Positions 13,503-55,429 of a stretch of 64,000 bases of DNA are shown one piece after another. The notes below the pieces were generated by a model. That model made no database searches, was not told the DNA's origin, and saw only the letters and a list, made by a program, of their open reading frames with translations. Numbering within the stretch: the stretch's first letter is position 1; the number at the start of each line of letters is the position of its first letter. The position numbers and the translations under genes were made by a program. The stretch comes from Escherichia phage V18: sequence record NC_041937.1; one strand, given 5' to 3'.

Positions 13503-14495
13503 TTAACGAGAAAAGGTTGCGTAGGCTTCTAGACGATACTGCTGGTCACCAGGGAACATAACACCTATAGAGGCTGTCCCTAGAATCCTGCCTTCCTTTC
13601 CAGACTCCATTCTGAACCCTACCCATCCTGAACTCCTTGCAGCCTCGATGTTGTCGCTATACCCGAAAGTGGCAAGATCGTCAACACCAGCCCCAAACAG
13701 CAACTGAAGCTGACTTCTAGGAAGCCCTATAATTTCAGGAATATACGCACCAAAGTACACCATCTGCCCTACCTTAGGACCGCTGCCGTACTCCATCGGT
13801 TTGCTTGTAGAGAAAGTCTTCATACCAGAAGTACCTGCCGGATTAGGGTATGCCCCGTTTGTTGCTGTACCTATCCACATTCTCCACTGTGGTGCCATCT
13901 GTTTGACAGTAAACGATGTTGAAGACGTTTTGCGGCCTGCATCATCTGTAACTACAAACCTTATAGTGACATTCCCAGGAGCTTTAAATGTTACCAGTCC
14001 TGTGGTAGCATCCACTGTTGCAATGTTGGTATTACTACTTTCCCAAGTCTTTCTGATTCCTGGCACATTGGAAGGGGTAATAGAAGGTTCCTGCATCTGC
14101 AGTTTACCACCTACAATCCCTATCCCGTTTCCTGGATTATACAACGCACCAACCTCGTCTACAATGTTACCTGCCTTGAGACTGTACTTTTTAGAGAAGT
14201 TGTAAGTGCCGTTATATGTGTGTGTCCCTGAGAAGGTTACATCTGCCTTGCCGTTGGAGATGCAAACCAAAGCATACTTCCTGTCAGGCAACTGTGCCCC
14301 AGTTTCTGGGTGAGTTTTACCAACCTGGAACACACTCGGGTCAGTGGAGTCATGGCTATCACTAATGGAGTTTGGGCCACCCATCAGCTGTGACAAACAA
14401 TTCCTTACCCATGTCCAGTTATTATCACTGGAGAAGTCCACAGTCAAATCGAATACAACCCACTCATTTGGCTTCCATACAGGAGTTGTAATCAA
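13503..14495 (-). CDS. structural protein with bacterial Ig-like (Big_2-type) domain
   Basis: 330-aa ORF; segment ATVDATTGLVTFKAPGNVTIRFVVTDDAGRKTSSTSFTV resembles Ig-like domains. Confidence 0.5.
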   Translation of the reverse strand: MITTPVWKPNEWVVFDLTVDFSSDNNWTWVRNCLSQLMGGPNSISDSHDSTDPSVFQVGKTHPETGAQLPDRKYALVCISNGKADVTFSGTHTYNGTYNFSKKYSLKAGNIVDEVGALYNPGNGIGIVGGKLQMQEPSITPSNVPGIRKTWESSNTNIATVDATTGLVTFKAPGNVTIRFVVTDDAGRKTSSTSFTVKQMAPQWRMWIGTATNGAYPNPAGTSGMKTFSTSKPMEYGSGPKVGQMVYFGAYIPEIIGLPRSQLQLLFGAGVDDLATFGYSDNIEAARSSGWVGFRMESGKEGRILGTASIGVMFPGDQQYRLEAYATFSR

Positions 14496-15175
14496 CTTAC
14501 CAACAGAAGGGTTGGAGACTGTTCAGTGATCAGGGCAGAGTATGCCAGAGTGCCTAACTGCATGGTCTGGCTTGCTGTCCTCACTACCTTAGAATCAACA
14601 TCTGTGAAGTTGTTGATGATTTGGAATGTACCATAAGTGTTTTTACAGGTAATTCTGGCGTTCAGTGTGTCAATCTTCCTCACATCTGCCATAGCAGTGT
14701 TAGACACAGAGAAGTCAGAAGCTCTAGCCGAGTTTGCTGCAACAGCTGGATCAACGTTGAGAGTTGCGTTGAACTGGCAGGCAGGAGTAACCAGTAGCTT
14801 GTTATCACCTATTTGCTTCCATGAAACACTTTGAACAGGGAGATTCCATTTAATACCTGAGAAAACTTTAGCAACCCTTGGTCCCAGAGCTCCAGTCCTG
14901 TTGTCTTTACAGCTCATGGACATGGTGATCGTTGACGGAGTGGCCTGACCAAACAATTGCTGTGCTTTTGCAGAGGACATGGTGTAGAAATTGTCCTTAA
15001 CAAACTCATCAGCCGCTAACGATCCGTCAGATCTCCACCATTGCACCTGGTAGCCTGTCTTATCCCAGCCACCAACCTGCTTCAAGTCCTCCCAAGAGAT
15101 TTCCAGATCCCCAGTGGTAGGTTGATTGCCGCAGTTCCCGGTGTTCCAGATGACCATATTGGGATATCGAACCAC
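14492..15175 (-). CDS. hypothetical tail-associated protein (start uncertain; 94-nt overlap with upstream ORF)
   Basis: 227-aa ORF from track. Confidence 0.4.
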   Translation of the reverse strand: MVRYPNMVIWNTGNCGNQPTTGDLEISWEDLKQVGGWDKTGYQVQWWRSDGSLAADEFVKDNFYTMSSAKAQQLFGQATPSTITMSMSCKDNRTGALGPRVAKVFSGIKWNLPVQSVSWKQIGDNKLLVTPACQFNATLNVDPAVAANSARASDFSVSNTAMADVRKIDTLNARITCKNTYGTFQIINNFTDVDSKVVRTASQTMQLGTLAYSALITEQSPTLLLVS

Positions 15176-16047
15176 GCTGGTTTAACAGACTGCACTGCGT
15201 TAGGTCCTATTGCAGCAGCAAGTTGTTGACCCATCAATACGCGAGTATCTTTCACATAACCCCACTCGATCATAGACCCAGAGTAACCCTCTTTCTTATA
15301 CGCGGATGACCCATTCAAGTGAATAAGTCTACTTGTGCCGAAGTTATACGCCCCACCACCATTATCATCTGCAAAATTGTATATGATTCTATCCCTAATA
15401 TCTTTCCATGCCCTACCGCCAATCTCGTAGTCATGGTCATAGCATCTTTGCAGCGTTGTCCAGCAGATGATTGCCATCCTTCTACCGTTACTGAAGCCGA
15501 AAGCCTGATCGTTAAGCTCTCTCCACAAGTAGCAGTTGGTGGTCCACATGGCTCTGTGAATGTTGTACCAGTTTATAGATTTGGCAGAGTTGTTCCACTG
15601 AGTTCCGGGTAATTCAGGCCATACTGCATTAACCAGCATGTCCTCTGTCCCTGCATCTATCAAGAAGCCTCTCACCTTCTTACCCATACCTACTCTGTCT
15701 TTGGCAATCCATGCGCCAAACAATCTCAGTTTTGGACCGTAAACATCCTCTTCGCGATGCTCAAGAGAAACATACTTTAGATATACCGTAGGGTCACCGT
15801 AGGTGTCGGATATTCTTTTATCCCCTGCATATGGTGAGTCTGCAAACTGGTAGTGCAGAGCAACTTCAAAAGGATGTGTGGATGTTCCGTTTTCTGCAAG
15901 AACTTGCTTCCCGATCAGATCGCATTTAATAATCATCACGACACGTTTGTACCCCCAGGTTAACGGAACAACAAACGGAATCAGGCAGTTCACCAGGTCC
16001 CCAGAATATTGCTCCGGAACAGTTGTAGAACCACTTGTTAGGATCAT
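15082..16047 (-). CDS. hypothetical tail-associated protein
   Basis: 321-aa ORF, ATGA overlap with upstream gene. Confidence 0.45.
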   Translation of the reverse strand: MILTSGSTTVPEQYSGDLVNCLIPFVVPLTWGYKRVVMIIKCDLIGKQVLAENGTSTHPFEVALHYQFADSPYAGDKRISDTYGDPTVYLKYVSLEHREEDVYGPKLRLFGAWIAKDRVGMGKKVRGFLIDAGTEDMLVNAVWPELPGTQWNNSAKSINWYNIHRAMWTTNCYLWRELNDQAFGFSNGRRMAIICWTTLQRCYDHDYEIGGRAWKDIRDRIIYNFADDNGGGAYNFGTSRLIHLNGSSAYKKEGYSGSMIEWGYVKDTRVLMGQQLAAAIGPNAVQSVKPAWFDIPIWSSGTPGTAAINLPLGIWKSLGRT

Positions 16048-18065
16048 AGTTGTTCTTGAAGGTCTGAACCTCGTTTGCCTGTTTCAACAAGAAAACATGC
16101 CTGTCGATCAGCATATCCAGGTTGGTTAAACCACTGATTGCAAGAATAGTCCCGCATATAGTCATAATCAGAGTATTTGTTGTTTGCATCCTCGTTCCAA
16201 CACAAGTTCAGGTTGGTGCCGCCCATGCACACAATATATTCTTCAACGTATTTATCACTTCGGGTGGGAATACCTATGAACCATCTGTTAACAGGTTCGT
16301 CCCAAGCTGTGCGCTCATCTTTAACGCAGATAGCAATCCAGTCATGTGTTCCTGTTTTCTTGCACACATCGCGCTTCATACCGTAGTAGAACTCTTTAGT
16401 ATTTGGCTCAGGTGCGCTTATCAGGTAGCTCCACGCCTGGTCTGCATAGGTTCCGTTGGTGCGAGGGTCATGATCAAAGGCATACATGAGGATCCTTTCC
16501 CCACCAAGATGTTCGCCAAGAGTAACTTTGACATTCACATCGCCGTAACCGTTGCGAACAACATCCATATTGTCAATAGAGATGCCTCTAGGGGTGTAGG
16601 CAATTTTCAGTGAGTTATCCTCACTAGTGCCACCAAGGGTGATCCCTATGTTATTTGTTGTCCCGTCGGCATATCTTACTGTAGCTTCCCAGCGTATTCC
16701 GAAATATCCTGCATCATGGCTAACAATTTTCAGTGTACGAGCACCAGAGTTAGGTTTTCCAGGATCAGGCCAAGGGTTTGGGTGTTCGTGAACAGTCAAC
16801 GATGTCCCGTTTTGTTCATTGACCTGCAACATTTTACCACCTCTGCCGTTTGGGTTGAACTCCCATAAGGCCTGTGTCTGCACCAAGTTATCATAGGTAT
16901 TTCGTCGCTGATTATAAATCTCTTGGGTAACATCATAAGTTACTGATCCAGCATCCATTCTGTGGAGTCTGACCATATACGATGTATCCCCTTCTACTGC
17001 AGGCTGAGCCGCATTCAGCCCAAAGTATACAGTATCATTAACATGGAACTGTTTGTTTCTACCGGCAGTATGCCATTTACCATCAGACGGGTACGCTGGG
17101 ACGATAGTGTTCCAGTTCAAAGTCCTTGTTGTGTGGGTTCTGCCTGTGCCATGTTTGTCATGATAGGTTCTGTTAACATTTCTGTTATATTGGGTAACAA
17201 CAACTTCGTTGGCCCCGCCGTGGTTCCAGTTGGTGGAGAATTGGTAATTTGCATCTGTAACAACCGTGCCTGCAGCATTTACCAGCTCAATCTTGTCAAT
17301 AATGAACGTAGCCCCTTCTGGCTGAGGCTTCAATTTCATCTTGACCGTGTCACCAATGTAAATATTGCTAACGCTGCTAACACCGTTAACGTCGAAAATA
17401 TCATCAACACCCCAACTATCTACCGGGACATTTTTATACCAATTCTCCGGAATCTCTGTGAACCCTTGGCTGTTAAGTCTGCCGCCAAAGAGGTTATTAG
17501 ATCCTGAAAAACTACCACGTGGTATTCCTGACCACCAAAGCTTTCCATTTACCACACAGAATGTGCCTAAGAAACCTTCCCTGTGGATCCCTTGAAAATA
17601 AACGCTTTCTGTCCAACTTACTGGCTCTGTCTGTTCAACAAACTTAGCTGTTGCCAGCGCTCTGTAATGAATAAAATTGGCCCTAGGGTTGTTGTTTGCA
17701 GATTGAGCACCAATATCATTACACAAGTTGCGAGAGAATCCACGATACTGCTTAGTGCCATTGTTGAAGAAAATGCCACTTGTGCCGTACCCACGAGCCA
17801 TTATTACCTCATGAACATTCCAGGCTGTTTCGCTCGGATAGTTTATAGGGCTACGATCCCCAGTGCGGCACTCTCCGAACTTGTTATAGCCAGTAATATT
17901 AAGCTGACCATCATCAAAAAGTATAGCTAAGCTATTTACATAGGATACTGTGTTGCTTGTACCATCACTGTTGTCTATTGGGTATGACAGAACAGCAAGT
18001 TCCTTAATTCCACCCCTCTTATCGAGGAAATGACGACCAAGTTTTAGCAAAGGGATTGGAAGCAT
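16044..18065 (-). CDS. large tail fibre/tailspike-like protein
   Basis: 673-aa ORF rich in G/N/T/S/Y; position in fibre cluster. Confidence 0.5.
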   Translation of the reverse strand: MLPIPLLKLGRHFLDKRGGIKELAVLSYPIDNSDGTSNTVSYVNSLAILFDDGQLNITGYNKFGECRTGDRSPINYPSETAWNVHEVIMARGYGTSGIFFNNGTKQYRGFSRNLCNDIGAQSANNNPRANFIHYRALATAKFVEQTEPVSWTESVYFQGIHREGFLGTFCVVNGKLWWSGIPRGSFSGSNNLFGGRLNSQGFTEIPENWYKNVPVDSWGVDDIFDVNGVSSVSNIYIGDTVKMKLKPQPEGATFIIDKIELVNAAGTVVTDANYQFSTNWNHGGANEVVVTQYNRNVNRTYHDKHGTGRTHTTRTLNWNTIVPAYPSDGKWHTAGRNKQFHVNDTVYFGLNAAQPAVEGDTSYMVRLHRMDAGSVTYDVTQEIYNQRRNTYDNLVQTQALWEFNPNGRGGKMLQVNEQNGTSLTVHEHPNPWPDPGKPNSGARTLKIVSHDAGYFGIRWEATVRYADGTTNNIGITLGGTSEDNSLKIAYTPRGISIDNMDVVRNGYGDVNVKVTLGEHLGGERILMYAFDHDPRTNGTYADQAWSYLISAPEPNTKEFYYGMKRDVCKKTGTHDWIAICVKDERTAWDEPVNRWFIGIPTRSDKYVEEYIVCMGGTNLNLCWNEDANNKYSDYDYMRDYSCNQWFNQPGYADRQACFLVETGKRGSDLQEQL

Positions 18066-22204: not shown

Positions 22205-23244
22205 CTATGCATAATTAACAGTGATCCATTGACCATTTACAAGTTTTTGTAAAGGTCCTGCCCAGTAAGTTGAACCACGCATCTCTTTTTTGTCACCGAA
22301 ATGCCAGCCTGTGACAACGTAGCCGTTGCGGATTGGAGATTCAGAAACGCCGTCCACAAGTCTTGCACCGATTCTGATGTCTTGCACACCCGTCTGCGGG
22401 ATAGTGATCGTTACATCACCGTTACCGTTAGCCGTCACTCCGTTCACAGAGCGAACCACATTTCTGTTACCTACAACACAGTGCTGGCTTCTTACAACCA
22501 TACTGTCACAACTTGCACCACCATTAACATATACTGACCCAGCCGTCAACTGACTAGCCACATTACAGTTGGTGAATGTTGCGGTATTGCTGATAGTAAG
22601 GTTATTGCACCTCATGTTATCGACAGCTTCAACATTGCCTACCACTTTCAACAGCGCACGGTTAGCAGTGATCGCGTTAAGGTACATCAAAGTGAACTCT
22701 GGATTAATATCCGGCTGAGTTGGCTGGAATCTCCAACGAAACGCATCTATTGTAGATGTACCACCATCATCAAACGACCCAATATTATCACTTAACCCAA
22801 AGTCGAGAGTTGTCTTATCTGGGCCAATAGTTGTCTCTATCCAAGCCTTATCTGTCTCGGCAGCTTTAAAGTTGATACGTTGCAAACCCAATGGGCCTGT
22901 CATTGTATCACCTGTAACTTTTACATACCTGGCGTCTGCCTCTTCCTTGGTAATAATCCCAAGGTTTCTACGGGCAACAGGAATGTTCAAAAGATCACTC
23001 AAGTTATTATCACGTACCAGATAACGGCCTTCTTGAGCGGGGATCTGCTCGTCAGCAATGTATTTTGCCCAAGTTCCGAGCATATTGAAAATATAGTTAA
23101 GTTCTTCACATGAGGGCTTTTGACCAAGATCCCAACCTTTTCTCCACAAATCATCAATCGGGCGTAGCTGTTCTGTCTGTGGGTGTTAGGCAGAACCTGA
23201 TCCTCCTCTGCCCAAATCTCTAATGGAAAACTAGGTTTTGACAT
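22205..23244 (-). CDS. short tail fibre/receptor-binding protein (paralog A), apparent frameshift near 23180..23190
   Basis: ORFs 22205..23149 and 22999..23244 in different frames; together they align with paralog B from N-terminal PLxIWA motif to C-terminal KLVNGQWIT; shift maps to a CCC run. Confidence 0.5.
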
Positions 23245-23256: not shown

Positions 23257-25329
23257 TTATGAGAAGTCTGGCGGGACAACATCTTCTACATACCCTTTCA
23301 GAGCAACCTGCCCCATATGAAGCACGGTAGAATCTCTAGCGGTAACAGTGATGCTGTCAGACATTACTTGCGGGTATGCCCACACATACTGTTTTACCTC
23401 AGGGTATCTATACTCTATAGTTGCCATGTTTCCGCAAATACATCTCCATAAAAATTCTTGGTAATTCCTAGTTGGGTCGTAGCCATATACCGGAGCAAGC
23501 TCTTTACTAGGAACGAACCCTGCAAGGTATTGTATTTCAGACGGTTGCCAACCTAACTTAACGATAGGTATGTTTACAGACTCTTTTGCCTTTTCAATAC
23601 CTCCCTGCATCACCCAATCGTAGCACTCGGTGCAGAAGAAATCAAGAGCACCTGCTTCCTTTTTATATTGGTCAGCAAGGTTCAGCTTTTGTGTAAGCTC
23701 AGTTTCCATAATGGTTGGGAAAAACAACAAAGCTGTCATCTGAGCTGATGCAGCGTGTGCCTTTATTGCCTTTGAAATAGCCGCAATACGAGCGCCAAGC
23801 TTACCACGACAAAATGCTACATACTTGTCGTAAACACCGCCAGTTTTAGGATCGTCAATAGTCCCAATATCTAATGCATACTCACCTGTCTCATCATAAA
23901 ACGCCTGCTTTGTAGGATAATCATAAATACAAGGTCTACGAGTATCGGTATTGTACCACCACCACGGTTCACCAACCTGCATAATCACTGGCAGGTTGTT
24001 TCTCATAGCGGCTGATGCAAAATTCTTAAATACTGCAGTAAGGAAATTCATACCCTCTTCAATGGTTGGAGACAGGAGGTAGCTACAAGGTGTATACCCT
24101 GTTTTAGCGTAGTTATCGTTCCAGTCTCTTTGGGTCCATTCCAACGGGCAGGCATCGCTGAAAAGCTCAAAACTTACAGATTGCATAACGTCGAAGTTAT
24201 GTCGTTTGGCATTGTACATAAAATCATCATGCCATTTATAAGCTGCAGCGTTTAGCGCTCCTGTTCTGTTTATAGACCATTGAGTTCCTGACCATGTGTA
24301 GTCATAATAATGACTCATACCAACATAATGGTTTATGGTTCCGGTATAGCCCAGACGCTTGATATTGTTCAACACCCTTAAAGGAGATACGTTCCACATG
24401 TCGTCATATGCGGTGCAGATCCCAACGTCGTGCTCTCTCACCTGAATATTGTTAAGTTGCATCATTTTCCAGCCTGTGTCTGGCTGAAGCAGATCTAGGC
24501 GCAACTCACACTCTACATTTTCCGTTCTCGGGTCTGTGCTATTACTTACCCAGTCTTTAGGCATGAGCGGTATTAAAATCCTTCTCACCTGCCGAGGATC
24601 AACACCCATCATGCTGTTATTCTGGTCCATCCCGACGCAGTCCTCAAAATCAATATGAATTTCTGCAACATTCTTATCCTCTGAGATGCTGACAGCATAT
24701 TGAGCTAAAGGAACATAGATGATTGTGCCATCAACAAGGTCTACAGTCATAATCATCTTTTCAGGAGTGGAGAAGTTGCTGGCGTTGGTTATTGACATTC
24801 TGAACCAAAGCTTGGTGTTTCTCATCTCATAGTGATCATCGAACCCAATACCGAAATGGTCATACTTGTCAACTGTTTCCCAAATGCACCCAGCCATACC
24901 TCCATATGTTCTTGACACTAAACGGTTAATACAACAGTTGTTATCTGCAACAATACAGGTACTTTCAGTCTGCTGAGTAGTTGTAACCCAATACCTTGGG
25001 TGGAACATTCTCTCCTCGACAGTATCCCAAGATATCCTGTCAAGATTCTCATCTGAAACTATTGTACATTTCGCCCTTTGTGTCCCAATCATCACCCCTT
25101 GGGATTTTGATGAAAACTCCATAAAGAAGCTTCTTGGCAACCTATTGGGTAATTTGTCAACAATTTCCACCGGGATCTCAATACTGGTTGCCCCAATTGG
25201 GATAGTTACATCGCCCTCAACATGATTATAATCCCTACCAGGAACAGCAGTATCCTGAACTGTTCGGTAATGAAACTGTGCGGCCATTGTAGAGTAATCA
25301 CGGTAAGGTTTAAAAACAGCTGTTGCCAT
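23257..25329 (-). CDS. large tail-associated protein with Calx-beta-like N-terminal domain
   Basis: 690-aa ORF; DYNHVEGDVTIPIGATSIEIPVEIVD resembles Calx-beta motif. Confidence 0.5.
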   Translation of the reverse strand: MATAVFKPYRDYSTMAAQFHYRTVQDTAVPGRDYNHVEGDVTIPIGATSIEIPVEIVDKLPNRLPRSFFMEFSSKSQGVMIGTQRAKCTIVSDENLDRISWDTVEERMFHPRYWVTTTQQTESTCIVADNNCCINRLVSRTYGGMAGCIWETVDKYDHFGIGFDDHYEMRNTKLWFRMSITNASNFSTPEKMIMTVDLVDGTIIYVPLAQYAVSISEDKNVAEIHIDFEDCVGMDQNNSMMGVDPRQVRRILIPLMPKDWVSNSTDPRTENVECELRLDLLQPDTGWKMMQLNNIQVREHDVGICTAYDDMWNVSPLRVLNNIKRLGYTGTINHYVGMSHYYDYTWSGTQWSINRTGALNAAAYKWHDDFMYNAKRHNFDVMQSVSFELFSDACPLEWTQRDWNDNYAKTGYTPCSYLLSPTIEEGMNFLTAVFKNFASAAMRNNLPVIMQVGEPWWWYNTDTRRPCIYDYPTKQAFYDETGEYALDIGTIDDPKTGGVYDKYVAFCRGKLGARIAAISKAIKAHAASAQMTALLFFPTIMETELTQKLNLADQYKKEAGALDFFCTECYDWVMQGGIEKAKESVNIPIVKLGWQPSEIQYLAGFVPSKELAPVYGYDPTRNYQEFLWRCICGNMATIEYRYPEVKQYVWAYPQVMSDSITVTARDSTVLHMGQVALKGYVEDVVPPDFS

Positions 25330-25892
25330 TAACCCTCCTGTCTAGTTGCGTTTACTGTAATACTTTCACAATAAATGGTTGTGGTGTCCCAATCAGGTCT
25401 TACGTCAGGAACATACAGCAAAGTAGCCAGCCCACCAACTCCGAATTGGTTTTCTTCCCACACTGATCCGAAGCCAAGAGCTGTAGAGTCCCCTTCAAAA
25501 CCAAAAGCTTGCCCTTGCGATTCTGTAAGACGCAAATGACAAGGCAATGGTAGCATATCTAAGATCTGATCGATAGACTGCAATATGTCAAAGCAAGTTT
25601 TTCTAATATTTATGTCAAACCGGAAGTTGTCTCCTTTCCACGTATCGAAATTGTCTCTTCCGAACAATTGTCGCAAGGTGGAGATGACATCTTCACGAGT
25701 CCCGCCCCTTGATGCTGCGGCCTGCTGAATAATTAGTGTGGCACGAAAATCAGCATCTGAAAGTCCATTCCTAAGAATACCAAGTTGATTACCAACTTCG
25801 TCAAGGTATCTTCCGCTGGCATTGTTAAGCAATCTTCCTTCAGCCAAACCTACCAGCATCTTATCAACATCCTCCAACCTTTTAAGGTACAC
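25329..25892 (-). CDS. hypothetical baseplate/tail protein
   Basis: 187-aa ORF coupled to neighbours. Confidence 0.4.
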   Translation of the reverse strand: MYLKRLEDVDKMLVGLAEGRLLNNASGRYLDEVGNQLGILRNGLSDADFRATLIIQQAAASRGGTREDVISTLRQLFGRDNFDTWKGDNFRFDINIRKTCFDILQSIDQILDMLPLPCHLRLTESQGQAFGFEGDSTALGFGSVWEENQFGVGGLATLLYVPDVRPDWDTTTIYCESITVNATRQEG

Positions 25893-26025
25893 GGTTAAGA
25901 ATGTGACTAAATTAACCTTCTCAGCCAGAAAATCTCCAGGCAGGTAGTCAAGACCTCCCTGAACAAAATCTGGCAGAGTGTGGATGTGGTTAACATCGAC
26001 TTAATCTCTGCCATATCTCGCCGCC

Positions 26026-31356: not shown

Positions 31357-31368
31357 AGAAGTTGATAA

Positions 31369-37596: not shown

Positions 37597-37597
37597 C

Positions 37598-39866: not shown

Positions 39867-40679
39867 TTACAGTAAGACCGACATCCTCTCTCGGGTTTTT
39901 CTTTTTCTTACGTGTGCCACCTTTCGCAGCAGCTTTAGCTTTTCGTTTTTTAGCAGGCTCGGGGTTTTTAGGGTGGGAGATCCGTGCATCCCAGACTCTG
40001 CACTTATTTCAAACACAGAGTCCTTGAACCTTTTTCCAACCTTGGTCCAATACAAAGCCCCATCCTGAACGCTAAATGTGGAGTTGGTCAGTCTTGCAAA
40101 CCTGCGGAGGTTCTCTGCAGTGTTTCCAGAGAAAGCCATAGAGTATTGCAAAGTCTGGTTTCCAAAACCAACAACCCTACCTTTTGGCAAGTTCATATCC
40201 TTCAGTAGGTCATTAAGCACAGAGTTCAGAGGTGTGCCTTTCTGATAAGATCTTGTGCTTTGGCACTTAATGATGTTCTCAGTACCATCCCCGAAGATGA
40301 ACTTAGTTTTTCTGGTCGGACCTTCCCATCTGTCTTCAACAAACTCTACAGTTCCGGAGAATATCAACTGGTTCTCATCATCATAGCCAGCTTCAAACAT
40401 AACTGCAAGGGCATCAGCCTGATGCATATCCAGATAGTTAACTGTATCGTCAGACAGGTTGTAAACTGTCACATAACCTTTGTTTGGCTCTTTGGTATTG
40501 TCCTTTTGTATGTCAAACTCTATATTGGCGGCACCAGTGTCTGAGCTAACTTCATAAACTCCGGAATCACTCTCCCCTTTCTTTTCAACAGATTTTGGGA
40601 TATTGGTTTTTGATTTACCGCCATGCTCTACCGGACGACCAAACAATAATCGCCATGTTCTACGTCTGTACTCTGCCAT
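39867..40679 (-). CDS. baseplate/tail structural protein
   Basis: 270-aa ORF. Confidence 0.4.
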   Translation of the reverse strand: MAEYRRRTWRLLFGRPVEHGGKSKTNIPKSVEKKGESDSGVYEVSSDTGAANIEFDIQKDNTKEPNKGYVTVYNLSDDTVNYLDMHQADALAVMFEAGYDDENQLIFSGTVEFVEDRWEGPTRKTKFIFGDGTENIIKCQSTRSYQKGTPLNSVLNDLLKDMNLPKGRVVGFGNQTLQYSMAFSGNTAENLRRFARLTNSTFSVQDGALYWTKVGKRFKDSVFEISAESGMHGSPTLKTPSLLKNEKLKLLRKVAHVRKRKTRERMSVLL

Positions 40680-42059: not shown

Positions 42060-43559
42060 TTACCAAAGGTCGGTAGACATGAAGTTGATATCTTTGCTGT
42101 TCTCCCACTCAAGTTTTGCATCAAGTATTTTGCTAAACTCACCCTCATCTATGGAAAGCGTGATTTTCCCATCACTGATCTCTAAAGGTAGCATTTCCAT
42201 AGTTCTTAATTGAGAAGCAAAACCAGGGCCACCTGGCAACGGAAGAGTCCCGCCCGGCAAAGTGTCCAAAGGATTAACAAACCCGTTACCTCCCGATATG
42301 ATATCTTTGCGAATCATATCGCTGATAGTATCCAGTTGCTGATTTCTTTCACTCAGTGGGTTGAAACGGTCATTAAATAATTCCCCGGCGCTTAATATTG
42401 TACCGATAATGCCCAGCTTGCCGAGCAGACCAACTTTACCACCAGGTGTCTTGAGGCCACCTCCACCTTTTCCTGCCGCGCCACCACTACTAGATCCTTC
42501 TGCAGTAGCGGCACCCGCTGCTCCAGCTGCACCCCTTAGAGAGTTAAGGAATTTAAAGGTTTTTACAAGCATAGATGCCATGACAAAACCTTTTGTTAGG
42601 GCGTTGACTACCAGCATGATGGCAGCAGCAAACCCTGCCCATTTAGCATAGCTAAAGGTGTCATGAAGCTCTTCAGAATATTCCTTCGTCTTAGCTGTTA
42701 TGAATCCCCATTTAATCCCCCATTCAAGGAAAAACATGCGGATCTTGACTATAGTGTTGTTTAGTTCACCAACTACCCAGTTAAGGCCTCTCACAAACCC
42801 ACTAACAAAATCACCAGAGGCATCCCACACAAATTGCAGAGTCTCACCAGTGCGGATTAATGTATAATAGAACTCTGTTAGTTCGTCAGACCAACGGGTG
42901 AACAGTTTCTGACGAGTCAGTTCGATGAAGGTTTTCAGTCTGTTTTCTGCCAGCACGTTAGACTTCTGCATTCTTTCATAACCAGCTGCAGATGCCTCGT
43001 TCATGTACTTAGCCACATACTTCATGATCTTGGCTGTTTTAACCTCACCTTTCTTCATCATGTCCATGAACTGATCCATGGATAGTTCAGAAAGACCAAA
43101 AGCCTCTTTAGTGGCCTTGATAAAAGGTTCGTATGCACCAGGCAAGGCTTCAGCAAGTTGTTGCTTCAGTTCTTCGGACATTACTTGTCCCTTGCCAAGC
43201 ATCTGTTGGATTGCCATAATACCGCGCTGGTATTTTACCTCATCAGCACCATAAGCAGCAGCATACTGGGAGTATGCAGAAAACAGCTCATGCACTTCCT
43301 GATTTGTCATCTGGTTTTTGGCGTTTACCGACATCTGGGCGTAACCTTGAAGACCAGATTTGAGATCAAAACCAAGACGCATAGCCTCTTGCTGGACAAA
43401 CGCAACCTCACTGTTGGCTTTGTTTGGATCTCCAGTAACAGCAGTAAGAGCAGCACTTGCCCCCTCCATCATGTGACCGGATCTGTTAACCGCAGCAAAT
43501 CCAGAAAAAGCTGTATACGCAGCTGTTGCATTAATAACAGATCTACGTAAGTCTCTCAT
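42060..43559 (-). CDS. tape measure protein (C-terminal part or whole)
   Basis: 499-aa ORF; helical, Gly/Ala-rich internal tract, position between chaperones and baseplate. Confidence 0.5.
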   Translation of the reverse strand: MRDLRRSVINATAAYTAFSGFAAVNRSGHMMEGASAALTAVTGDPNKANSEVAFVQQEAMRLGFDLKSGLQGYAQMSVNAKNQMTNQEVHELFSAYSQYAAAYGADEVKYQRGIMAIQQMLGKGQVMSEELKQQLAEALPGAYEPFIKATKEAFGLSELSMDQFMDMMKKGEVKTAKIMKYVAKYMNEASAAGYERMQKSNVLAENRLKTFIELTRQKLFTRWSDELTEFYYTLIRTGETLQFVWDASGDFVSGFVRGLNWVVGELNNTIVKIRMFFLEWGIKWGFITAKTKEYSEELHDTFSYAKWAGFAAAIMLVVNALTKGFVMASMLVKTFKFLNSLRGAAGAAGAATAEGSSSGGAAGKGGGGLKTPGGKVGLLGKLGIIGTILSAGELFNDRFNPLSERNQQLDTISDMIRKDIISGGNGFVNPLDTLPGGTLPLPGGPGFASQLRTMEMLPLEISDGKITLSIDEGEFSKILDAKLEWENSKDINFMSTDLW

Positions 43560-44395
43560 GCATCGCCTAGTGTAAGCGTTTGGCTGGTGGCACTTTTAAA
43601 TCCAGACTGCAGTGCTGACAGGTGGGCGTTAAAGGTTGACTTTTTCATCTCCCCGCGAGCAAACCTGGACTCTAACTCTGAGTATCCTGGCAAGCTTCCA
43701 CGGAATCCGGCCCCATACTTGGCAGAAAGTCTTATCGCGGAGTTGTAGAGGTGGGTTCTTCTTGCCTCACGATCCGACATAAGCCTATTATCCATACCAG
43801 CTTTACCGTCCCTTCTTAGCTGTCTATGATAACGATTCATAGCAGCTGTCTGAGCTTTTACAAGATTAGGGTCGGAAGCCACACCACCCATATTAGGGTT
43901 ACCGGGGATATATTTGAAAGCTTTGGCATTAGCCAGAACTCTTGCCTTAGGTGCCTTATAACCGCCGTAAGACACTGGTGCAGATTTGGCAGCCTTTTTG
44001 GCCTCTTTAGCTTGCTGCTGGTAGAACTTACGCATCCTAGCCATTTCTGGATTTTTAGCGGTAAGATTACCTACAGCTTGTTTACGTCTCGCATTCTCCC
44101 TACGTTCTATTGCAGCCCTTACTGCAGCCTCTTTCTTGGCCTGTGCTACGCTCTCCCTGTGCAGCTTAGCATTTGCCTGAGATTGCTGTCTGGCAACCCG
44201 CTGCATTGTCTGCTGGGTTTTAACAGCTACCGCCTGCCATCTACTCATGGGGTTGGCTGAGTTAAAATCCTCACCTAGTTTCCTGAACTCCCTCCCAATA
44301 CTGCGAATTTTCTCTACAGCTTTTTTGTAGGAGGAGTTCTCTATCTCAAAGCCAATCTTGTTGACTGTTGTGGCAACTATTTTGTTTGTAGCCAT
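43556..44395 (-). CDS. basic coiled-coil protein, possibly N-terminal part of tape measure
   Basis: 279-aa K/R/A/Q-rich ORF; ATGA overlap with 42060..43559. Confidence 0.45.
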   Translation of the reverse strand: MATNKIVATTVNKIGFEIENSSYKKAVEKIRSIGREFRKLGEDFNSANPMSRWQAVAVKTQQTMQRVARQQSQANAKLHRESVAQAKKEAAVRAAIERRENARRKQAVGNLTAKNPEMARMRKFYQQQAKEAKKAAKSAPVSYGGYKAPKARVLANAKAFKYIPGNPNMGGVASDPNLVKAQTAAMNRYHRQLRRDGKAGMDNRLMSDREARRTHLYNSAIRLSAKYGAGFRGSLPGYSELESRFARGEMKKSTFNAHLSALQSGFKSATSQTLTLGDA

Positions 44396-47206: not shown

Positions 47207-47445
47207 TTGTTTCCTCTTAATATCTGTGCACGGATATCAAACACGCAGTGTAATCATTACACTACACAATTATAACGATTACTGACCACTGTCTGTAACC
47301 GCTTTACCAGAATTGGGTGAAGGGAAGTGTGTGGTTATTTCAGCCTTAATTCCCTGAAGATCCTCAAAAGCCCCAATGTCTGTTTCAACAAACCTTACGT
47401 TAAATGTCAGCATCACAGTGGCTCTATTTTCATACGTCTGCTTAT

Positions 47446-47829
47446 TCAACGGCACTCTTTGAGGTGAGATTGTTGAATTGTTAGAGTAGGCAAAGCACGA
47501 TCCAGAGGGAAATACTTATCATAAAACATTGGAAGGTTTATTGCTTGCAATACTCTGCTAAGTGCAGCATATGCCCTGCCACGATAAGCTGTTAGCAGAT
47601 AGGTAACAGTGTAACTGTGGGTGACACAAGCATTACCCTCCGCATCTTGAAACTCATTATCTTCCCAAGTGGTAGGATTGATCGCCAAGGTTTGTAAAAG
47701 TACAAACTCACCTTCCGGCTTCGGTATGGTAGAGCTTTCTGCCAGAACTACAGTTCTTCCTGTGGCAACCTTGACGAGCTTAGCAATGGTTGTTTCAAGA
47801 TCAGAAAAAACTTTTTCGAAAGCTTCCAT
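47446..47829 (-). CDS. neck/tail completion protein
   Basis: 127-aa ORF. Confidence 0.4.
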   Translation of the reverse strand: MEAFEKVFSDLETTIAKLVKVATGRTVVLAESSTIPKPEGEFVLLQTLAINPTTWEDNEFQDAEGNACVTHSYTVTYLLTAYRGRAYAALSRVLQAINLPMFYDKYFPLDRALPTLTIQQSHLKECR

Positions 47830-49461: not shown

Positions 49462-49914
49462 TTATGCCAGTGCAGCCTCAAAATCTTTCATCATATTTTG
49501 GAAAGTTTTTGCCTTACTTAAGGTAACACCGTACTCTTTGGCGAAGGTTTGGAGTGCATCTTTTGAACCACTTTTGTCATCTTCGTTGTTAAGAGCTGCT
49601 GCCTGCTGTAGTATGGCATCAACATCACTGCGAGAAGATCTTGATTCTTGTGCCTGTTCAGGATCCTGCTCAGTGCCTTCCTCAGGTACAGTCGGGCCTT
49701 GAGATTCTTCACCACCACCAGGTTCAGTAGGACCTACAGGCGGCTCCGGCTCTGGTTCAGGCGGTGGAGCTACCGTAGAGGTCAGTCCAAGATTCACAAC
49801 CTGAGAACGTTTCTTAGGCCACTCAATGGTGAAAGTTTGGGTATCTTCTTCATAAACAATGCTGCATTGCTCATCGTTTATGGTCACTTTTTTAGGCATC
49901 CCTACAGGTCCCAT
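49462..49914 (-). CDS. Pro/Glu-rich head-associated protein
   Basis: 150-aa ORF. Confidence 0.4.
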   Translation of the reverse strand: MGPVGMPKKVTINDEQCSIVYEEDTQTFTIEWPKKRSQVVNLGLTSTVAPPPEPEPEPPVGPTEPGGGEESQGPTVPEEGTEQDPEQAQESRSSRSDVDAILQQAAALNNEDDKSGSKDALQTFAKEYGVTLSKAKTFQNMMKDFEAALA

Positions 49915-50306
49915 AGATGGCCCTCTGCCACGGAAACTTGGAAAGCAGCGTCTACCTCTTTAAACACTGACGGGGTGAGTGTAATATTGACATCCCCGCT
50001 TTGCAGTGTTAAAGTGCTTTCATCAAGGTTCTCTGTGAAGAACAGAAGAATAACACCCATACGGATAGTTGAAATACCAGTATCAATTGGCAGGCCTGTA
50101 TGTTTTGCAATCTTCTCGAAGAAGTCTACAATCGTTCTGCATGGATAGTGAACACTGCCAATAACGAACTCTGTTGGTGGCAGCAAGGCTGATAAACCGA
50201 CATTGATTTCTGGATTATATTGTGCTAAAAATTGATAAAAACTTAACTGATTGTTGAAAACTCTTAATAGAGGATCATACTCAACTGGGTAGACGGTTCG
50301 CTTCAC
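49902..50306 (-). CDS. head completion/connector protein
   Basis: 134-aa ORF. Confidence 0.4.
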   Translation of the reverse strand: MKRTVYPVEYDPLLRVFNNQLSFYQFLAQYNPEINVGLSALLPPTEFVIGSVHYPCRTIVDFFEKIAKHTGLPIDTGISTIRMGVILLFFTENLDESTLTLQSGDVNITLTPSVFKEVDAAFQVSVAEGHLWDL

Positions 50307-50326
50307 GGGACACTCCTGTTAAACCC

Positions 50327-50362: not shown

Positions 50363-50387
50363 CATATGGGATGAATCACCTCAGTGA

Positions 50388-51212
50388 TTATTCACCACCT
50401 TTCAGAGTTGCTTTAACAACCAGCTCTGGACGGGTGTTAACTGCCAGCATGGAAGTTTCAGATTCAATCTTCTCTTCACGCAGGTATGCAGAGTGTTTAT
50501 ACCACATGTACAGTTCCTGTGCTGGAGTGTTTGCTTCGTTAACATCGTCTGCCGGAGCAAAGTGCAGCTGGAACATCTGATCAATACCCATCGGCAGAAT
50601 GCGAGCTTCTTTCTTAGGAATATTGCCAGAGATATCTTCGATAAAGGTGATACCTTTATGCTCAAACACACGGTATACGCTGTCTTGACCGCCAGCACCC
50701 AGACGGCGACGCAGAGGTTCCTGAGCAGAGCCGTAATAGGTGTATGCCAGTTCTACCAGAGGGTCATACTGACAGGTTGTGTCACCAGGTGCATAGGATT
50801 TACCCAGAATAGCCTGGAACAGCGCTTTCTCACGCAGTGCTTCATGAGAAACACGGATACGGCGAACAACGCGGGTTACTACGTCCTGAACAGTTTTCGG
50901 AGCATCAGGTGTGAAGTAACGACGGAAGTTCTGAACATCTGCTGCGGTGATGCCTTTGTCCAGAGGGAAGAACGGGATGTTCAGGTTTTTAACCTGAGCA
51001 CGTTCACTACCAACGTAGTTACGCTCACCACCACGACGGCGTGCCGGAATGTCGGTTACAACTTCATCAACACGCTCAATCTGAGCAATTGTTGAGGTGC
51101 CGAGACGGGTTTCGAACAGATCCATACCAGTAATCAGGCGGAATTGACGCGGAACAAGGTCCAGAGTAGCACCTAAATCAACAATGCCAAATTCATCTTT
51201 ACGAGTAATCAT
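50388..51212 (-). CDS. putative major capsid protein
   Basis: 274-aa ORF, codon usage of a highly expressed gene, strong terminator downstream, position after portal/scaffold; short for an HK97-fold capsid protein. Confidence 0.45.
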   Translation of the reverse strand: MITRKDEFGIVDLGATLDLVPRQFRLITGMDLFETRLGTSTIAQIERVDEVVTDIPARRRGGERNYVGSERAQVKNLNIPFFPLDKGITAADVQNFRRYFTPDAPKTVQDVVTRVVRRIRVSHEALREKALFQAILGKSYAPGDTTCQYDPLVELAYTYYGSAQEPLRRRLGAGGQDSVYRVFEHKGITFIEDISGNIPKKEARILPMGIDQMFQLHFAPADDVNEANTPAQELYMWYKHSAYLREEKIESETSMLAVNTRPELVVKATLKGGE

Positions 51213-51296
51213 TTATTTCTCCAAAGTAAAATTGTAGCCAGCATCGCTAGAATCAACTTTGCCGAGCACGATATCAGAATATTGAGCGGTAATCAT
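51213..51296 (-). CDS. 27-aa upstream ORF duplicating the capsid gene initiation region
   Basis: GAAATAAATGATTAC occurs twice (51205..51219 and 51289..51303); uORF MITAQYSDIVLGKVDSSDAGYNFTLEK ends TAA immediately before the capsid ATG. Confidence 0.3.
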   Translation of the reverse strand: MITAQYSDIVLGKVDSSDAGYNFTLEK

Positions 51297-51380
51297 TTAT
51301 TTCCCCCGTTAAACTCTTATGCTTCAGCAGATCCAGATACTCTTTAGTTTTGGTTGCGTCCCTTGATCAGGTTCCCTTCT

Positions 51381-51728
51381 TTATCGAAGAGATCCCAGCC
51401 TACCAATACAAGACTCTGCGTCAGCTTGCGCCCATTCCCAATCAGGATGCTCTTTAGCCCAAGCCTCCTCTTCAATCTCAAAACCAAGCATGTGTGCAAG
51501 TGCTTTAGCATCATCATACCACATATCGAAGAAACGACGCAAGTATTCTTCAAAACTAAGCTCCACAGTAACTTGGCGAAGTGCCTTAACAATATCGTCT
51601 GTTAACTGCTCAGGCTTAAGATCACTCTTCATCAAAAGAGATACAGGTCTGTTGTTAGCGCTATAGCCTTGCGCCTTATGGCACAGGGCAATCCCCTTCT
51701 CTTTAATAGTAATCGTTTTTTCAGACAT
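51381..51728 (-). CDS. head protein (decoration or scaffold-associated)
   Basis: 115-aa ORF between scaffold/protease-like and capsid genes. Confidence 0.4.
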   Translation of the reverse strand: MSEKTITIKEKGIALCHKAQGYSANNRPVSLLMKSDLKPEQLTDDIVKALRQVTVELSFEEYLRRFFDMWYDDAKALAHMLGFEIEEEAWAKEHPDWEWAQADAESCIGRLGSLR

Positions 51729-53771: not shown

Positions 53772-53873
53772 AAGCTTTACCCCTCAAAACAGTATAACAA
53801 AATAGCCCTCATGTTAGAGGGCTAGTATCTCCGATTACTCTATTCTACCACATCTAATTAAGATTGGCAACAC

Positions 53874-55429
53874 TTAGATAAAACGCTTGAACATAGAAGG
53901 TGATGAGATTGATGGAATCACACAAGGAAGTGCTACCTCCTCTTTCTCCAGGAAATTAATCGCAGAAGCTACACAGTCGGCCCAGTCGTCTTTTCTGTTA
54001 AATGTTGATCTTTCCCCGTTGAATTTTTCAAGTTCAGTCAGAAATGCTTCCAGAGTATCAGGATGGAAACTGGATTTTACAATCCTCACCATTCCTTGTT
54101 GGGCAAGATTGGCAAAAGGTGAGAACCTTGTCAGTTTAGATTTGTTGGAAGGCATTGGGTCTTCTTCAACCCTAAACCCTTCGGCAAGCAAGGATCTGGA
54201 GGAGGTTAAGAACTCACTCTTACCTGCCTGACCGGGGTCCACAGAGAATACGATTATACAATCATCACCATCAAACTGCGCCTGTTTCCTGATGATCACA
54301 TCTCGTTCACCAGCCTTTTTACAGAACTTGCCTTCCAGACCTGTGGAATACCTCCCGTCATCCACGTTCTCAGGACAATAATCCCCGGACAGGTAATAAA
54401 AGCCGTCGCTATCTTTACTTACCTTGACACTGGCGGTAAAGTCAGGAAATTTATTACCGGAAGTTCTCTCGGTTCCTGCTTTATCCCATGCCCTGCAAGA
54501 CACTGATCCAAGGGGTACTCTATCGGCATCACGAAGGAAAGATCTTTGAAAATAGTTTGCACCCTCAGGCTTTGCAAACCAGTTACCATGGAGAAGCTGA
54601 GCTTTTTCAAGCTCGGGCAGACCTTCAAGGAAAGCAAGGTATTCTGGGTTGTCTCTTAAGCAGACAGGATTATCGAAGATTGTTGCGCCTATAAACGAGA
54701 ATGACAACGGTCTCGGCTTGATCTCTACACCCAGTCCGTTAACCGTGGTGTATTTCTCTATCAACTCTTCTTTAGAGTCTCCCCAGATAAATTCACCGTC
54801 GCGTCGGATAAAATATCTTTTCTTACCGCATTTCTCCGGATCTGGATACCCTTCATCGTCCAACCACCACCTAACCAGTTTGGCAAGCATGTGTTCTGAA
54901 TCGGGGTTACAGCTGATAACCATTCTTGATGGATACTTTGACTGAGATCTCAGACGAGACATCAGATAGTCTATCTGCTCCCATTCGAACTGCGTGCCTC
55001 ATCGAAGCAAACCAAGCAAACCATGGTATACTCAAGCCCTTGATGGTTAAGCTTATCTTGTACATACTCCATGTGGCAGTATTTTACAACAGCTCCCTTT
55101 TTGCTTCTATCCCACTTGCCAGTGTTCGGATCAAACCGTGGAAAAATGAACTTATGATCCTTCTCTCTGAACTTTGGCTTAATGTTTTCAGGCAGATCAC
55201 TATAAATAGCTACTGCTTTAGGCCATAGTCCACCCTCACCTTCCAACTGTGGGGTTGTTCTTCGGAACATAACCACAGAGCTGTGGGGGTCATCAATAAT
55301 TTTAAGTGGCATCAATTGCAAGAGGAACGACTTGCCAGACCCTGCGGCACCGCCGATTACCAAAATATCTGCATCGTTTTCGAGGATCATCTTCTGCTTT
55401 TCAGAACACGGTCCGTAAATCTTAGACAT
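53874..55429 (-). CDS. terL: terminase large subunit, split by apparent frameshift at about 54975..54998
   Basis: N-terminal ORF 54971..55429 has Walker A GGAAGSGKS and Walker B LVCFDEA; C-terminal frame is open from 54998 (QFEWEQIDYLMSRL...) and continues in ORF 53874..54962. Confidence 0.7.

What the first reader, a model, noticed from the sequence alone, without database searches (positions are those of the whole stretch)
13503..55429. Several essential morphogenesis genes are disrupted across the structural module
Terminase, the J-like tip protein, the S74 fibre and short-fibre paralog A all need a frameshift or stop bypass to give full-length products, and other adjacent ORF pairs overlap suspiciously (14492..15175 with 15082..16047; 37598..38266 with 34999..37596 separated by TAA plus 1 nt). 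This many lesions in essential genes is unlikely in a viable phage. Systematic indel error in the assembly is one explanation; a defective or decaying element is another.
Basis: inference. Interest (0 to 1): 0.5.

Follow-up and report, generated by a model that had tools for sequence, protein, structure and literature searches.

The report
Indel-riddled draft of an rV5-like phage
The broken capsid, tail and packaging genes are real in this sequence, but they belong to a window-wide scatter of about 50 deletions that ignore gene importance and reading frame, so this is most likely a poor-quality sequence of an ordinary E. coli rV5-like phage and not a decaying or unusual element.

Summary
The window is a Vequintavirus (rV5-like) E. 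coli myophage, 97-99% identical to more than 100 sequenced relatives, with its structural module on the minus strand at 13503-56111. The reported breaks in terminase, the J-like fibre, the S74 fibre, short-fibre paralog A and the 14492-16047 pair are all real. The 37598..38266 / 34999..37596 pair is a normal conserved gene boundary.

Fourteen of 41 structural genes are damaged, including the major capsid, scaffold, decoration, tape-measure and baseplate-hub genes. About 10 non-structural genes (rIIA, RNA ligase, anti-sigma factor and others) and the tRNA block are also hit, at the same density (about 0.5 per kb).

There are two classes of lesion:
- 23 private 1-nt deletions, 20 of them G/C, 17 in G/C runs, with a rate that rises with run length.
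- 22 deletions of 9-1039 nt (4.7 kb in total) with no junction microhomology and no preference for multiples of 3.

No relative or public contig shares any junction tested. Substitutions show strong purifying selection (pN/pS about 0.08) and no nonsense mutation. Two genuine relatives have no frame-breaking indel.

Verdict: a sequencing or assembly artefact, not biology. Low interest.

The parts
13503..18065 (-). Ig-like/intimin-domain lateral tail fibre (1877 aa in relatives), broken into four ORFs. Lesions: -10 nt (14505), -1 nt (15120, GGG to GG), -153 (15802), -158 (15979), -32 (16097), +3 (16181), -24 (17168), -696 (17813).
22205..23244 (-). Short tail fibre paralog (EmilHeitz bas49_0035) with a 1-nt deletion (CC to C) at 23168, between codons 25 and 26.
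25329..26015 (-). Tail-terminator-like gene (bas49_0033) with a 1-nt deletion (CC to C) at 25997, after about codon 6.
27622..30365 (-). J-like FN3 lateral fibre (1279 aa in relatives) with a 57-nt in-frame deletion at about 27823 and a 1039-nt out-of-frame deletion at 28444/28445.
31346..31932 (-). Tail fibre protein (bas49_0028) with a 1-nt deletion (CCC to CC) at 31440.
32032..34963 (-). Lateral fibre with a C-terminal Peptidase_S74 chaperone (about 1270 aa in VB-EcoM-WM), with deletions of 467 nt (32565), 235 nt (33152) and 179 nt (33228), all out of frame.
34999..38266 (-). Two intact adjacent genes (a 222-aa sialidase-domain protein and an 865-aa glycosidase fibre). This is a normal boundary, not a lesion.
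39685..40679 (-). Baseplate hub with a 1-nt deletion (G5 to G4) at 39971. The nearby -5/-1 pair at 39910/39914 is shared with ECP2303 and is natural.
42060..44395 (-). Tape measure protein split into 279-aa and 499-aa ORFs by a 1-nt deletion (GG to G) at 43560.
47282..47829 (-). Structural gene hyp_0013 with a 1-nt deletion (CCC to CC) at 47502.
49462..50306 (-). Structural gene hyp_0009 with a 1-nt deletion (GGG to GG) at 49907.
50388..51212 (-). Major capsid protein, 274 aa instead of 335-337 aa, with a 186-nt in-frame deletion at about 50762-50767.
51226..51728 (-). Remnants of the head decoration and scaffold genes. Four deletions (354, 367, 83 and 116 nt) at 51226, 51319, 51360 and 51394 leave islands of 86, 42 and 34 nt.
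53874..55429 (-). Terminase large subunit with a 1-nt deletion (GGG to GG on the coding strand) at 54997 and a 9-nt tandem duplication (GGTTTGCTT) at 55005-55013, both in the Walker-B strand MVCFDEG.
75..2053 (-). rIIA, outside the module, with a private 1-nt deletion at 1041.
4176..6609 (-). hyp_0062 (41-nt deletion at 4331) and a putative fucosyltransferase (16-nt deletion at 5937), both frame-breaking and private to the window.
6752..7724 (+). Anti-sigma factor homologue with two private 1-nt deletions (A6 to A5 at about 6800; CCC to CC at about 6917).
11608..12067 (+). hyp_0046 with two private 1-nt deletions (11689 and 11758).
56532..56942 (-). tRNA block. A 401-nt deletion at about 56817 removes tRNA-Tyr, tRNA-Ser and an unusual tRNA. 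The 5' arm of the tRNA-Pro anticodon stem is replaced by an 8-nt mismatch block (56576-56583). The 1-nt spacer between the Met and Thr tRNAs is deleted (56693).
60947..62918 (+). RNA ligase (1-nt deletion, GGG to GG, at 61598), hyp_0214 (1-nt insertion at 62059) and the sirtuin-domain protein (60-nt in-frame deletion at about 62778).

Best explanation
The window is a low-accuracy sequence of an otherwise ordinary, functional Vequintavirus (rV5-like) E. coli myophage. The frame breaks are most likely technical damage to the sequence record and not mutations carried by a replicating phage.

Two error processes are superimposed.
1. Undercalling of one base in short G/C homopolymers, spread evenly over the whole window.
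2. Excision of arbitrary stretches of 9-1039 nt. These are clustered in the three long fibre genes, the capsid/decoration/scaffold region and the tRNA block, as if segments with poor coverage or poor assembly had been dropped and the ends joined.

Shown directly: the lesions exist, they are private to this sequence, they are blind to reading frame and to gene essentiality, and they are not accompanied by any sign of relaxed selection. Inferred: they arose during sequencing, consensus calling or assembly. The platform or pipeline cannot be identified from the sequence alone.
For: 1. Identity. The window is 97-99% identical and fully syntenic with more than 100 Vequintavirus genomes across all 64 kb.

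2. Privacy. Every relative spans the deleted regions at a conserved length: 2.0 kb of window against 3.1 kb in 104 records, 4.67 kb against about 5.74 kb, and 651 nt against about 1,053 nt. Junction 40-mers and 30-mers are absent from IMG/VR (MCP, J-like fibre and terminase junctions). The MCP junction is also absent from JGI metagenomes and GTDB genomes. All 120 best capsid homologues are 314-354 aa long, against 274 aa here.

3. Control. ECP2303 and EmilHeitz differ by 4-5% and have 21 indels over the module. All are intergenic, multiples of 3 or compensated pairs, so none breaks a frame.

4. Window-wide spread. There are about 20 frame-breaking lesions in the 42.6-kb module (0.47 per kb) and about 12 in the other 21.4 kb (0.56 per kb). 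Those outside include rIIA, the RNA ligase and the anti-sigma factor. They were confirmed against two references.

5. Homopolymer signature. Of the 1-nt deletions, 20 are G/C and 3 are A/T (P = 2.5e-5). Seventeen of the 20 G/C events lie in runs of 2 or more (OR 18, P = 1e-8). The per-run rate is 0.02% for single bases, 0.18% for runs of 2 and 1.1% for runs of 3. There is no event in 6,806 A/T runs of 2-5 nt.

6. Larger deletions. Junction microhomology averages 1.1 nt against 0.7 nt at random, and 9 of 22 are multiples of 3 against 7.3 expected.

7. No decay. Window-specific pN/pS is 0.077 (0.089 in broken genes, 0.061 in intact genes), against 0.044-0.046 for the references. There is no genuine nonsense substitution in 19,237 aligned codons. 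Fragments on both sides of each shift are 95-100% identical to intact relatives.

8. Not a prophage. There is no match in 5,426 complete E. coli genomes.
Against: No reads are available, so the technical origin is inferred and not observed.

The strict G/C bias, with A/T runs of 2-5 nt untouched, is not the textbook profile of any platform that I can document here. DNA-polymerase slippage in vivo is also reported to favour G/C runs (from my own knowledge, not checked here).

Clean deletions of 100-1000 nt without repeats are not typical of de Bruijn or long-read consensus errors. Their clustering (a 17.5-kb stretch, 33231-50762, has none) shows the process is not uniform.

Nine of the larger deletions are in frame, and some of those in fibre repeat regions could be natural alleles.

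The terminase lesion coincides with a group I intron insertion site. That is unexpected for a random error, with a post-hoc probability of roughly 2e-3.
Confidence: 0.85

Rival explanations
1. A physically real but defective Vequintavirus genome, for example a heavily mutagenised stock, a helper-dependent or defective-interfering molecule, or a single damaged molecule captured by low-coverage sequencing. In this reading the deletions exist in the DNA.
For: The lesions are almost all deletions, as in genuine genome decay. The G/C-run bias could reflect in-vivo slippage. The terminase lesion lies at a homing-endonuclease target site.
Against: More than 30 frame-breaking lesions in at least 24 genes would need many generations of complementation. 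Yet pN/pS is 0.08, there are no nonsense substitutions, and the downstream frames are pristine. Real deletions usually show junction microhomology or repeats, and these do not. Early genes, tRNAs and structural genes are hit equally. No second copy exists in any collection searched. Vequintaviruses are virulent phages with no known integrated state (established knowledge). There is no hit in E. coli genomes.
Confidence: 0.08
2. Biologically programmed frame changes: ribosomal frameshifting or recoding, or phase-variable 'contingency loci' in fibre and other genes.
For: Homopolymer-associated, reversible frameshifts have been reported in phages (T2/T4; Fletchervirus polyG tracts of 7-11 nt) (bioRxiv 10.1101/2025.10.21.683753). 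Some of the broken genes are receptor-binding fibres.
Against: Contingency loci are defined there as homopolymers of at least 6 bp. Among the coding 1-nt deletion sites, only one lies in a run of 6 or more (A6, anti-sigma factor). One is a G5 run (baseplate hub). The rest are runs of 1-3 nt. No relative has a shift at any of these sites, and all have single uninterrupted ORFs. No shared slippery motif is seen in the contexts. Recoding cannot repair deletions of 16-1039 nt.
Confidence: 0.01
3. Natural allelic variation: the missing segments are domain-number or cassette variants of hypervariable fibre genes, and the window's phage is viable.
For: The Ig-like, FN3 and S74 fibres are the most divergent genes among relatives (84-93% identity). 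Deletions of 153, 696, 57 and 24 nt are in frame. Some other indels are shared with ECP2303 and are clearly natural: 39910/39914, 42034, 7241/7351 and the paralog block at 9251-9482.
Against: This explains at most a handful of in-frame events. The same genes also carry out-of-frame deletions (10, 32, 158, 179, 235, 467 and 1039 nt). Conserved genes are hit as well, including capsid, scaffold, decoration and terminase. None of more than 100 relatives shares any of these lengths.
Confidence: 0.03
4. For the terminase only: the 1-nt deletion and 9-nt duplication are a repair scar left by the intron-encoded homing endonuclease of a co-infecting, intron-bearing relative.
For: In APECc02 the terminase is interrupted after ...GAT GAG GGT by an insert of about 890 nt that carries an endonuclease VII ORF. 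The insert matches Rfam group I intron RF00028 over the full model (E = 2.4e-10, 46.3 bits against a gathering score of 50). The window's G deletion is in the GGG run one base upstream of that insertion site. The only clearly private insertion of 9 nt or more in the window lies 14 nt upstream of it.
Against: The site is a GGG run, like seven other 3-nt G/C runs that lost a base elsewhere in the window. The coincidence was noticed after the fact. The product would be a dead terminase with a disrupted Walker B motif. The duplication is absent from IMG/VR.
Confidence: 0.04

Closest known systems
Vequintavirus genomes (Escherichia phages rV5, EmilHeitz MZ501062, ECP2303 PP261279, FV3 NC_019517, VB-EcoM-WM PQ014731)
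   Same: Gene order, gene content and 97-99% nucleotide identity over all 64 kb. Every ORF fragment in the window maps to a known full-length gene of these phages.
   Different: The window lacks about 4.7 kb in 22 private deletions and has 23 private 1-nt deletions. At least 24 genes that are intact in all relatives are broken here.
Homopolymer indel errors in draft assemblies from error-prone reads
   Same: Single-base deletions enriched in homopolymers, with a rate that rises with run length. They are spread over all gene classes and produce adjacent ORF fragments that together rebuild a full-length protein.
   Different: The bias is almost exclusively G/C, and most events are in very short runs (2-3 nt). 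The additional class of microhomology-free deletions of 9-1039 nt is not explained by base-calling error and needs a second process, such as dropped low-coverage segments or mis-joins.
Decaying or cryptic prophages and pseudogenised elements
   Same: Many disrupted genes and a strong deletion bias.
   Different: There are no host flanks, the phage family is virulent, and there is no match in E. coli genomes. Substitutions are under strong purifying selection, with no nonsense mutations.
Phage contingency loci / polyG phase variation (T2, T4, Fletchervirus)
   Same: Frameshifts at G/C homopolymers, some of them in receptor-binding proteins.
   Different: Those tracts are at least 6 nt (7-11 nt in Fletchervirus) and are conserved as tracts. 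Here the runs are 1-3 nt, the relatives show no variation at these sites, and essential non-fibre genes are hit equally.

Membership tests
Vequintavirus (rV5-like myophage) genome | High nucleotide identity and synteny with type members across structural, early and tRNA regions | tested here: met
   97-99% identity, collinear over window positions 4-64000 with EmilHeitz; more than 100 records match.
Vequintavirus (rV5-like myophage) genome | A complete, intact set of morphogenesis genes, as in every sequenced member | tested here: not met
   Fourteen of 41 module genes are broken or internally deleted. This is interpreted as damage to the sequence, not as exclusion from the genus.
Sequencing/assembly indel artefact | 1-nt indels concentrated in homopolymers, with a rate that rises with run length | tested here: met
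   20 G/C against 3 A/T; odds ratio 18 for runs of 2 or more; per-run rate 0.02%, 0.18% and 1.1% for run lengths 1, 2 and 3.
Sequencing/assembly indel artefact | Lesions blind to gene class, essentiality and reading frame | tested here: met
   0.47 per kb inside the module against 0.56 per kb outside; 9 of 22 larger deletions are multiples of 3 against 7.3 expected.
Sequencing/assembly indel artefact | Lesions not supported by accurate reads or by independent sequences | not testable with these tools
   No reads are available. Indirectly, no public record or contig shares any junction tested.
Decaying prophage or pseudogenised element | Residence in a host chromosome (host flanks, integration site) | tested here: not met
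   The whole window is phage DNA syntenic with virulent phages. There is no match in 5,426 complete E. coli genomes.
Decaying prophage or pseudogenised element | Relaxed selection: dN/dS approaching 1, nonsense substitutions, secondary stops | tested here: not met
   pN/pS is 0.077 overall and 0.089 in broken genes. There are no real nonsense substitutions in 19,237 codons.
Programmed ribosomal frameshift / recoding | A frameshift site conserved among relatives | tested here: not met
   All relatives have single uninterrupted ORFs at every site.
Phage contingency locus (hypermutable SSR) | A homopolymer tract of at least 6 bp at the shift site | tested here: not met
   Definition taken from bioRxiv 10.1101/2025.10.21.683753. 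Only one coding shift site (A6 in the anti-sigma factor) qualifies; the others are runs of 1-5 nt, mostly 2-3.
Group I intron in the terminase (as in APECc02) | Presence of the intron and its endonuclease ORF | tested here: not met
   The window is intron-less. Only the exon junction region is altered.

The most novel reading that the evidence does not exclude
The sequence faithfully represents a real DNA molecule: a grossly defective Vequintavirus genome that persists by complementation, like a defective-interfering or satellite-type derivative of a large virulent myophage. In that case its terminase lesion at the group I intron insertion site would be a genuine homing-endonuclease repair scar.
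Probability: 0.06. Interest if true: 0.45.

Novelty: not a real feature. Interest (0 to 1): 0.08.

Why it matters
The main value is quality control. Gene calls, protein lengths and domain architectures taken from this window are unreliable, for example a 274-aa 'capsid protein', split terminase and tape-measure genes, and truncated fibres. They should not be used for comparative or host-range inference until the genome is resequenced.

If the lesions were real, the window would document a large virulent phage genome surviving with more than 30 lethal lesions, which would imply an unknown helper-dependent lifestyle. The substitution pattern, and the blindness of the lesions to frame and gene class, argue strongly against that.

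Tried and rejected
1. Finding the source, or an independent copy, gave nothing.
- Megablast against 50,697 phage records found only relatives that span the deletions.
- There was no hit in E. coli complete genomes.
- Exact junction strings were absent from IMG/VR (three strings), JGI metagenomes and GTDB genomes.
- Exact-protein look-ups of two damaged and two intact window proteins were not on record.

2. Looking for a near-identical sister genome to polarise the lesions also failed. The best relative is only about 97.7% identical.

3. Repeat collapse as the cause of the large deletions is rejected. The junctions have 0-5 nt of microhomology, no more than expected at random.

4. Decay is rejected on pN/pS and the absence of nonsense substitutions. 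The two 'nonsense' calls and the four stops were artefacts: HSP overhangs or multi-hit codons, plus a 2-aa C-terminal shortening of hyp_0011.

5. Contingency loci and recoding are rejected on tract length and lack of conservation.

6. Inspecting the 1-nt deletion contexts by eye for Dam (GATC) or Dcm (CCWGG) motifs showed no consistent motif. The sequencing platform could not be inferred.

7. The first attempt to view the APECc02 terminase used the wrong end of the match.

Full report
**What the window is.** Megablast of the structural region finds more than 100 Escherichia Vequintavirus (rV5-like) genomes at 95-99% identity. The whole window (positions 4-64000) is collinear with phage EmilHeitz (MZ501062) and, over the parts compared, with ECP2303 (PP261279). 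The morphogenesis module lies on the minus strand, from the Ig-like fibre (13503) to the spanins (56111). It is flanked by early genes (rIIA/B, MoxR ATPase, anti-sigma factor) on the left and by the tRNA block and the RNA ligase/PNK region on the right. The closest public relative of any long segment is about 97.7% identical.

**Checking the observation.** I aligned each EmilHeitz protein to the window with tblastn and listed all nucleotide indels.
- Terminase is split at codon 142 by a 1-nt deletion (GGG to GG) at 54997, with a 9-nt tandem duplication at 55005.
- The J-like fibre (Pfam Ig_J, Ig_J_second, Phage_Tail_Tip) lacks 1039 nt at 28444/28445 and a further 57 nt.
- The S74 fibre (Tail_spike_N ... 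Peptidase_S74) lacks 467, 235 and 179 nt.
- Short-fibre paralog A has a 1-nt deletion at 23168.
- ORFs 14492..15175 and 15082..16047 are two of four fragments of one 1877-aa Ig-like fibre gene that carries eight lesions.
- The pair 37598..38266 / 34999..37596 is not a lesion. Both proteins are full length at 99% identity, and EmilHeitz has the same stop-plus-1-nt spacing.

Five of the six named items are therefore confirmed.

More structural genes are damaged.
- The major capsid gene has a 186-nt in-frame deletion (274 aa against 335-337 aa).
- Four deletions (354, 367, 83 and 116 nt) within 170 nt of window sequence remove most of the head decoration gene and two thirds of the scaffold gene.
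- The tape measure protein, the baseplate hub, a tail-terminator-like protein, tail fibre 0028, hyp_0009 and hyp_0013 each carry a 1-nt deletion.

In all, 14 of 41 module genes are damaged.

The damage is also not specific to the module. rIIA, the anti-sigma factor (twice), a fucosyltransferase, hyp_0062, hyp_0046 (twice), the RNA ligase, hyp_0214 and small ORFs are frameshifted. The sirtuin gene lacks 60 nt. The tRNA block lacks 401 nt, so three tRNAs are detected where EmilHeitz has seven, and tRNA-Pro has a scrambled anticodon stem. All of these lesions that lie within the stretch covered by ECP2303 are private with respect to both references. The density of frame-breaking lesions is about 0.47 per kb inside the module and 0.56 per kb outside it.

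**Is this more than natural variation?** As a control I compared ECP2303 with EmilHeitz over the same 47-kb module. They differ by 4-5%, which is more than the window differs from EmilHeitz. They show 21 small indels, every one of which is intergenic, a multiple of three or part of a compensated pair, so no reading frame is broken. In every one of more than 100 relatives the regions deleted in the window have conserved lengths. All 120 best homologues of the capsid protein in a 5.8-billion-protein collection are 314-354 aa long. Junction-spanning strings are absent from IMG/VR. The capsid junction is also absent from JGI metagenomes and GTDB genomes.

**Anatomy of the lesions.** There are two classes.

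The first class is 23 private 1-nt deletions spread evenly from position 1041 to 61598.
- Twenty are G or C (binomial P = 2.5e-5).
- Seventeen of those 20 lie in G/C runs of 2 or more (odds ratio 18, P = 1e-8).
- The per-run deletion rate climbs from 0.02% for single bases to 0.18% for runs of 2 and 1.1% for runs of 3.
- None of 6,806 A/T runs of 2-5 nt is affected.

The second class is 22 deletions of 9-1039 nt, totalling 4,704 nt.
- Their sizes are spread roughly log-uniformly.
- Junction microhomology averages 1.1 nt, against 0.7 nt for random placement.
- Nine of 22 are multiples of three, against 7.3 expected.
- They are clustered: eight lesions in the Ig-like fibre, three in the S74 fibre, two in the J-like fibre and five in capsid/decoration/scaffold. 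None occurs in 33231-50762.

The lack of repeats at the junctions argues against repeat collapse and against ordinary slippage or recombination. The lack of any frame preference argues against filtering by selection.

**Decay or damage?** A three-way comparison (window, EmilHeitz, ECP2303) over 12,730 codons gives 416 synonymous and 113 non-synonymous window-specific changes.
- pN/pS is 0.077 overall, 0.089 in the broken genes and 0.061 in the intact ones.
- The two reference branches give 0.044-0.046.
- There is no genuine nonsense substitution in 19,237 aligned codons.
- The ORF fragments on both sides of each shift remain open and 95-100% identical to intact relatives.

A genome that had lost terminase, capsid, scaffold, tape measure and hub function could persist only by complementation. 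It would then accumulate substitutions neutrally, and that is not seen. The window has no host flanks and no match in 5,426 complete E. coli genomes. Vequintaviruses are virulent (established knowledge). A decaying element is therefore not supported.

**Most likely mechanism.** I conclude, with about 85% confidence, that the lesions are technical. One component is homopolymer undercalls. The other is excision of poorly covered or poorly assembled stretches during consensus building or assembly. Both affect what is otherwise a normal Vequintavirus.

What is shown: the lesions are private, deletion-biased, homopolymer-linked, blind to frame and gene class, and unaccompanied by relaxed selection. 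What is inferred: where they arose. I could not identify the platform. The almost exclusive G/C bias and the clean deletions of 100-1000 nt are not a textbook signature of any single technology, and no reads are available.

**Rivals.**
- A real defective molecule (8%) is disfavoured for the reasons given above.
- Recoding or contingency loci (1%) fail. Such loci are defined by tracts of at least 6 bp, whereas the sites here are mostly runs of 1-3 nt. The sites are invariant in relatives, and recoding cannot repair multi-nucleotide deletions.
- Natural fibre allelism (3%) could account for a few in-frame deletions but not for the pattern as a whole.

**A coincidence worth recording.** In APECc02 and some other relatives the terminase is interrupted after ...GAT GAG GGT by an insert of about 890 nt that encodes an endonuclease VII-like protein. 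Rfam matches this insert to the full group I intron model (RF00028, E = 2.4e-10, 46.3 bits, just under the gathering score of 50). The window is intron-less. Its 1-nt deletion is in the GGG run one base upstream of that insertion site, and its only clearly private insertion of 9 nt or more lies 14 nt upstream of it. This could be a homing-endonuclease repair scar. It is also simply one more GGG run losing a base, and I noticed it after the fact, so I give it about 4%.

**Verdict.** The 'assembly indel error' reading is supported and the 'decaying element' reading is not. This is a data-quality finding about an ordinary member of a well-known phage genus, so interest is low. Gene models from this window should not be used until it is resequenced.

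Noticed in passing
window 54990-55015 (minus strand); L009 (NC_041869.1) 1685-4124: The window's terminase lesion (a 1-nt G deletion plus a 9-nt tandem duplication in the Walker-B strand MVCFDEG) lies at the exact site where APECc02-type relatives carry a group I intron (RF00028, E = 2.4e-10) with an endonuclease VII-like ORF. It may be a homing-site scar or a coincidence in a GGG run.
   Followed up: partly
window 56532-56942; L006 10749-11560: The window has three detectable tRNAs (Met-CAT, Thr, Arg) where EmilHeitz has seven. A 401-nt deletion removes Tyr, Ser and an odd tRNA. tRNA-Pro is present, but an 8-nt block (56576-56583) replaces the 5' arm of its anticodon stem, so ARAGORN no longer calls it.
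   Followed up: partly
L006 11218-11316 (EmilHeitz; also slur16 and slur12 annotations): ARAGORN calls a 99-nt tRNA with a four-base anticodon (atcc) in intact relatives. It is annotated tRNA-Lys in EmilHeitz and tRNA-??? in the slur phages. The gene lies inside the segment missing from the window. I did not investigate it.
   Followed up: no
window 9237-9754: This is a tandem family of 87-aa paralogs. The window and ECP2303 have two copies (one divergent) where EmilHeitz has three (bas49_0052-0054). This looks like natural cassette variation and not a lesion.
   Followed up: partly
(records MG0656xx): Eighteen unannotated GenBank records named 'Campylobacter phage' (host C. jejuni) are about 97% identical to this E. 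coli Vequintavirus. They are probably mislabelled or contaminant phages.
   Followed up: no
window 44450-45183 (minus strand): The two small genes between the tail tube and the tape measure (157 aa and 82 aa; the first is annotated tail assembly chaperone in relatives) are intact. This is the one place where a natural programmed frameshift might be expected. I did not test for it.
   Followed up: no
window 48267-48740: hyp_0011 ends 2 aa earlier than in EmilHeitz because of a window-specific stop near the C-terminus. It is the only substitution-type stop seen and is probably harmless.
   Followed up: partly
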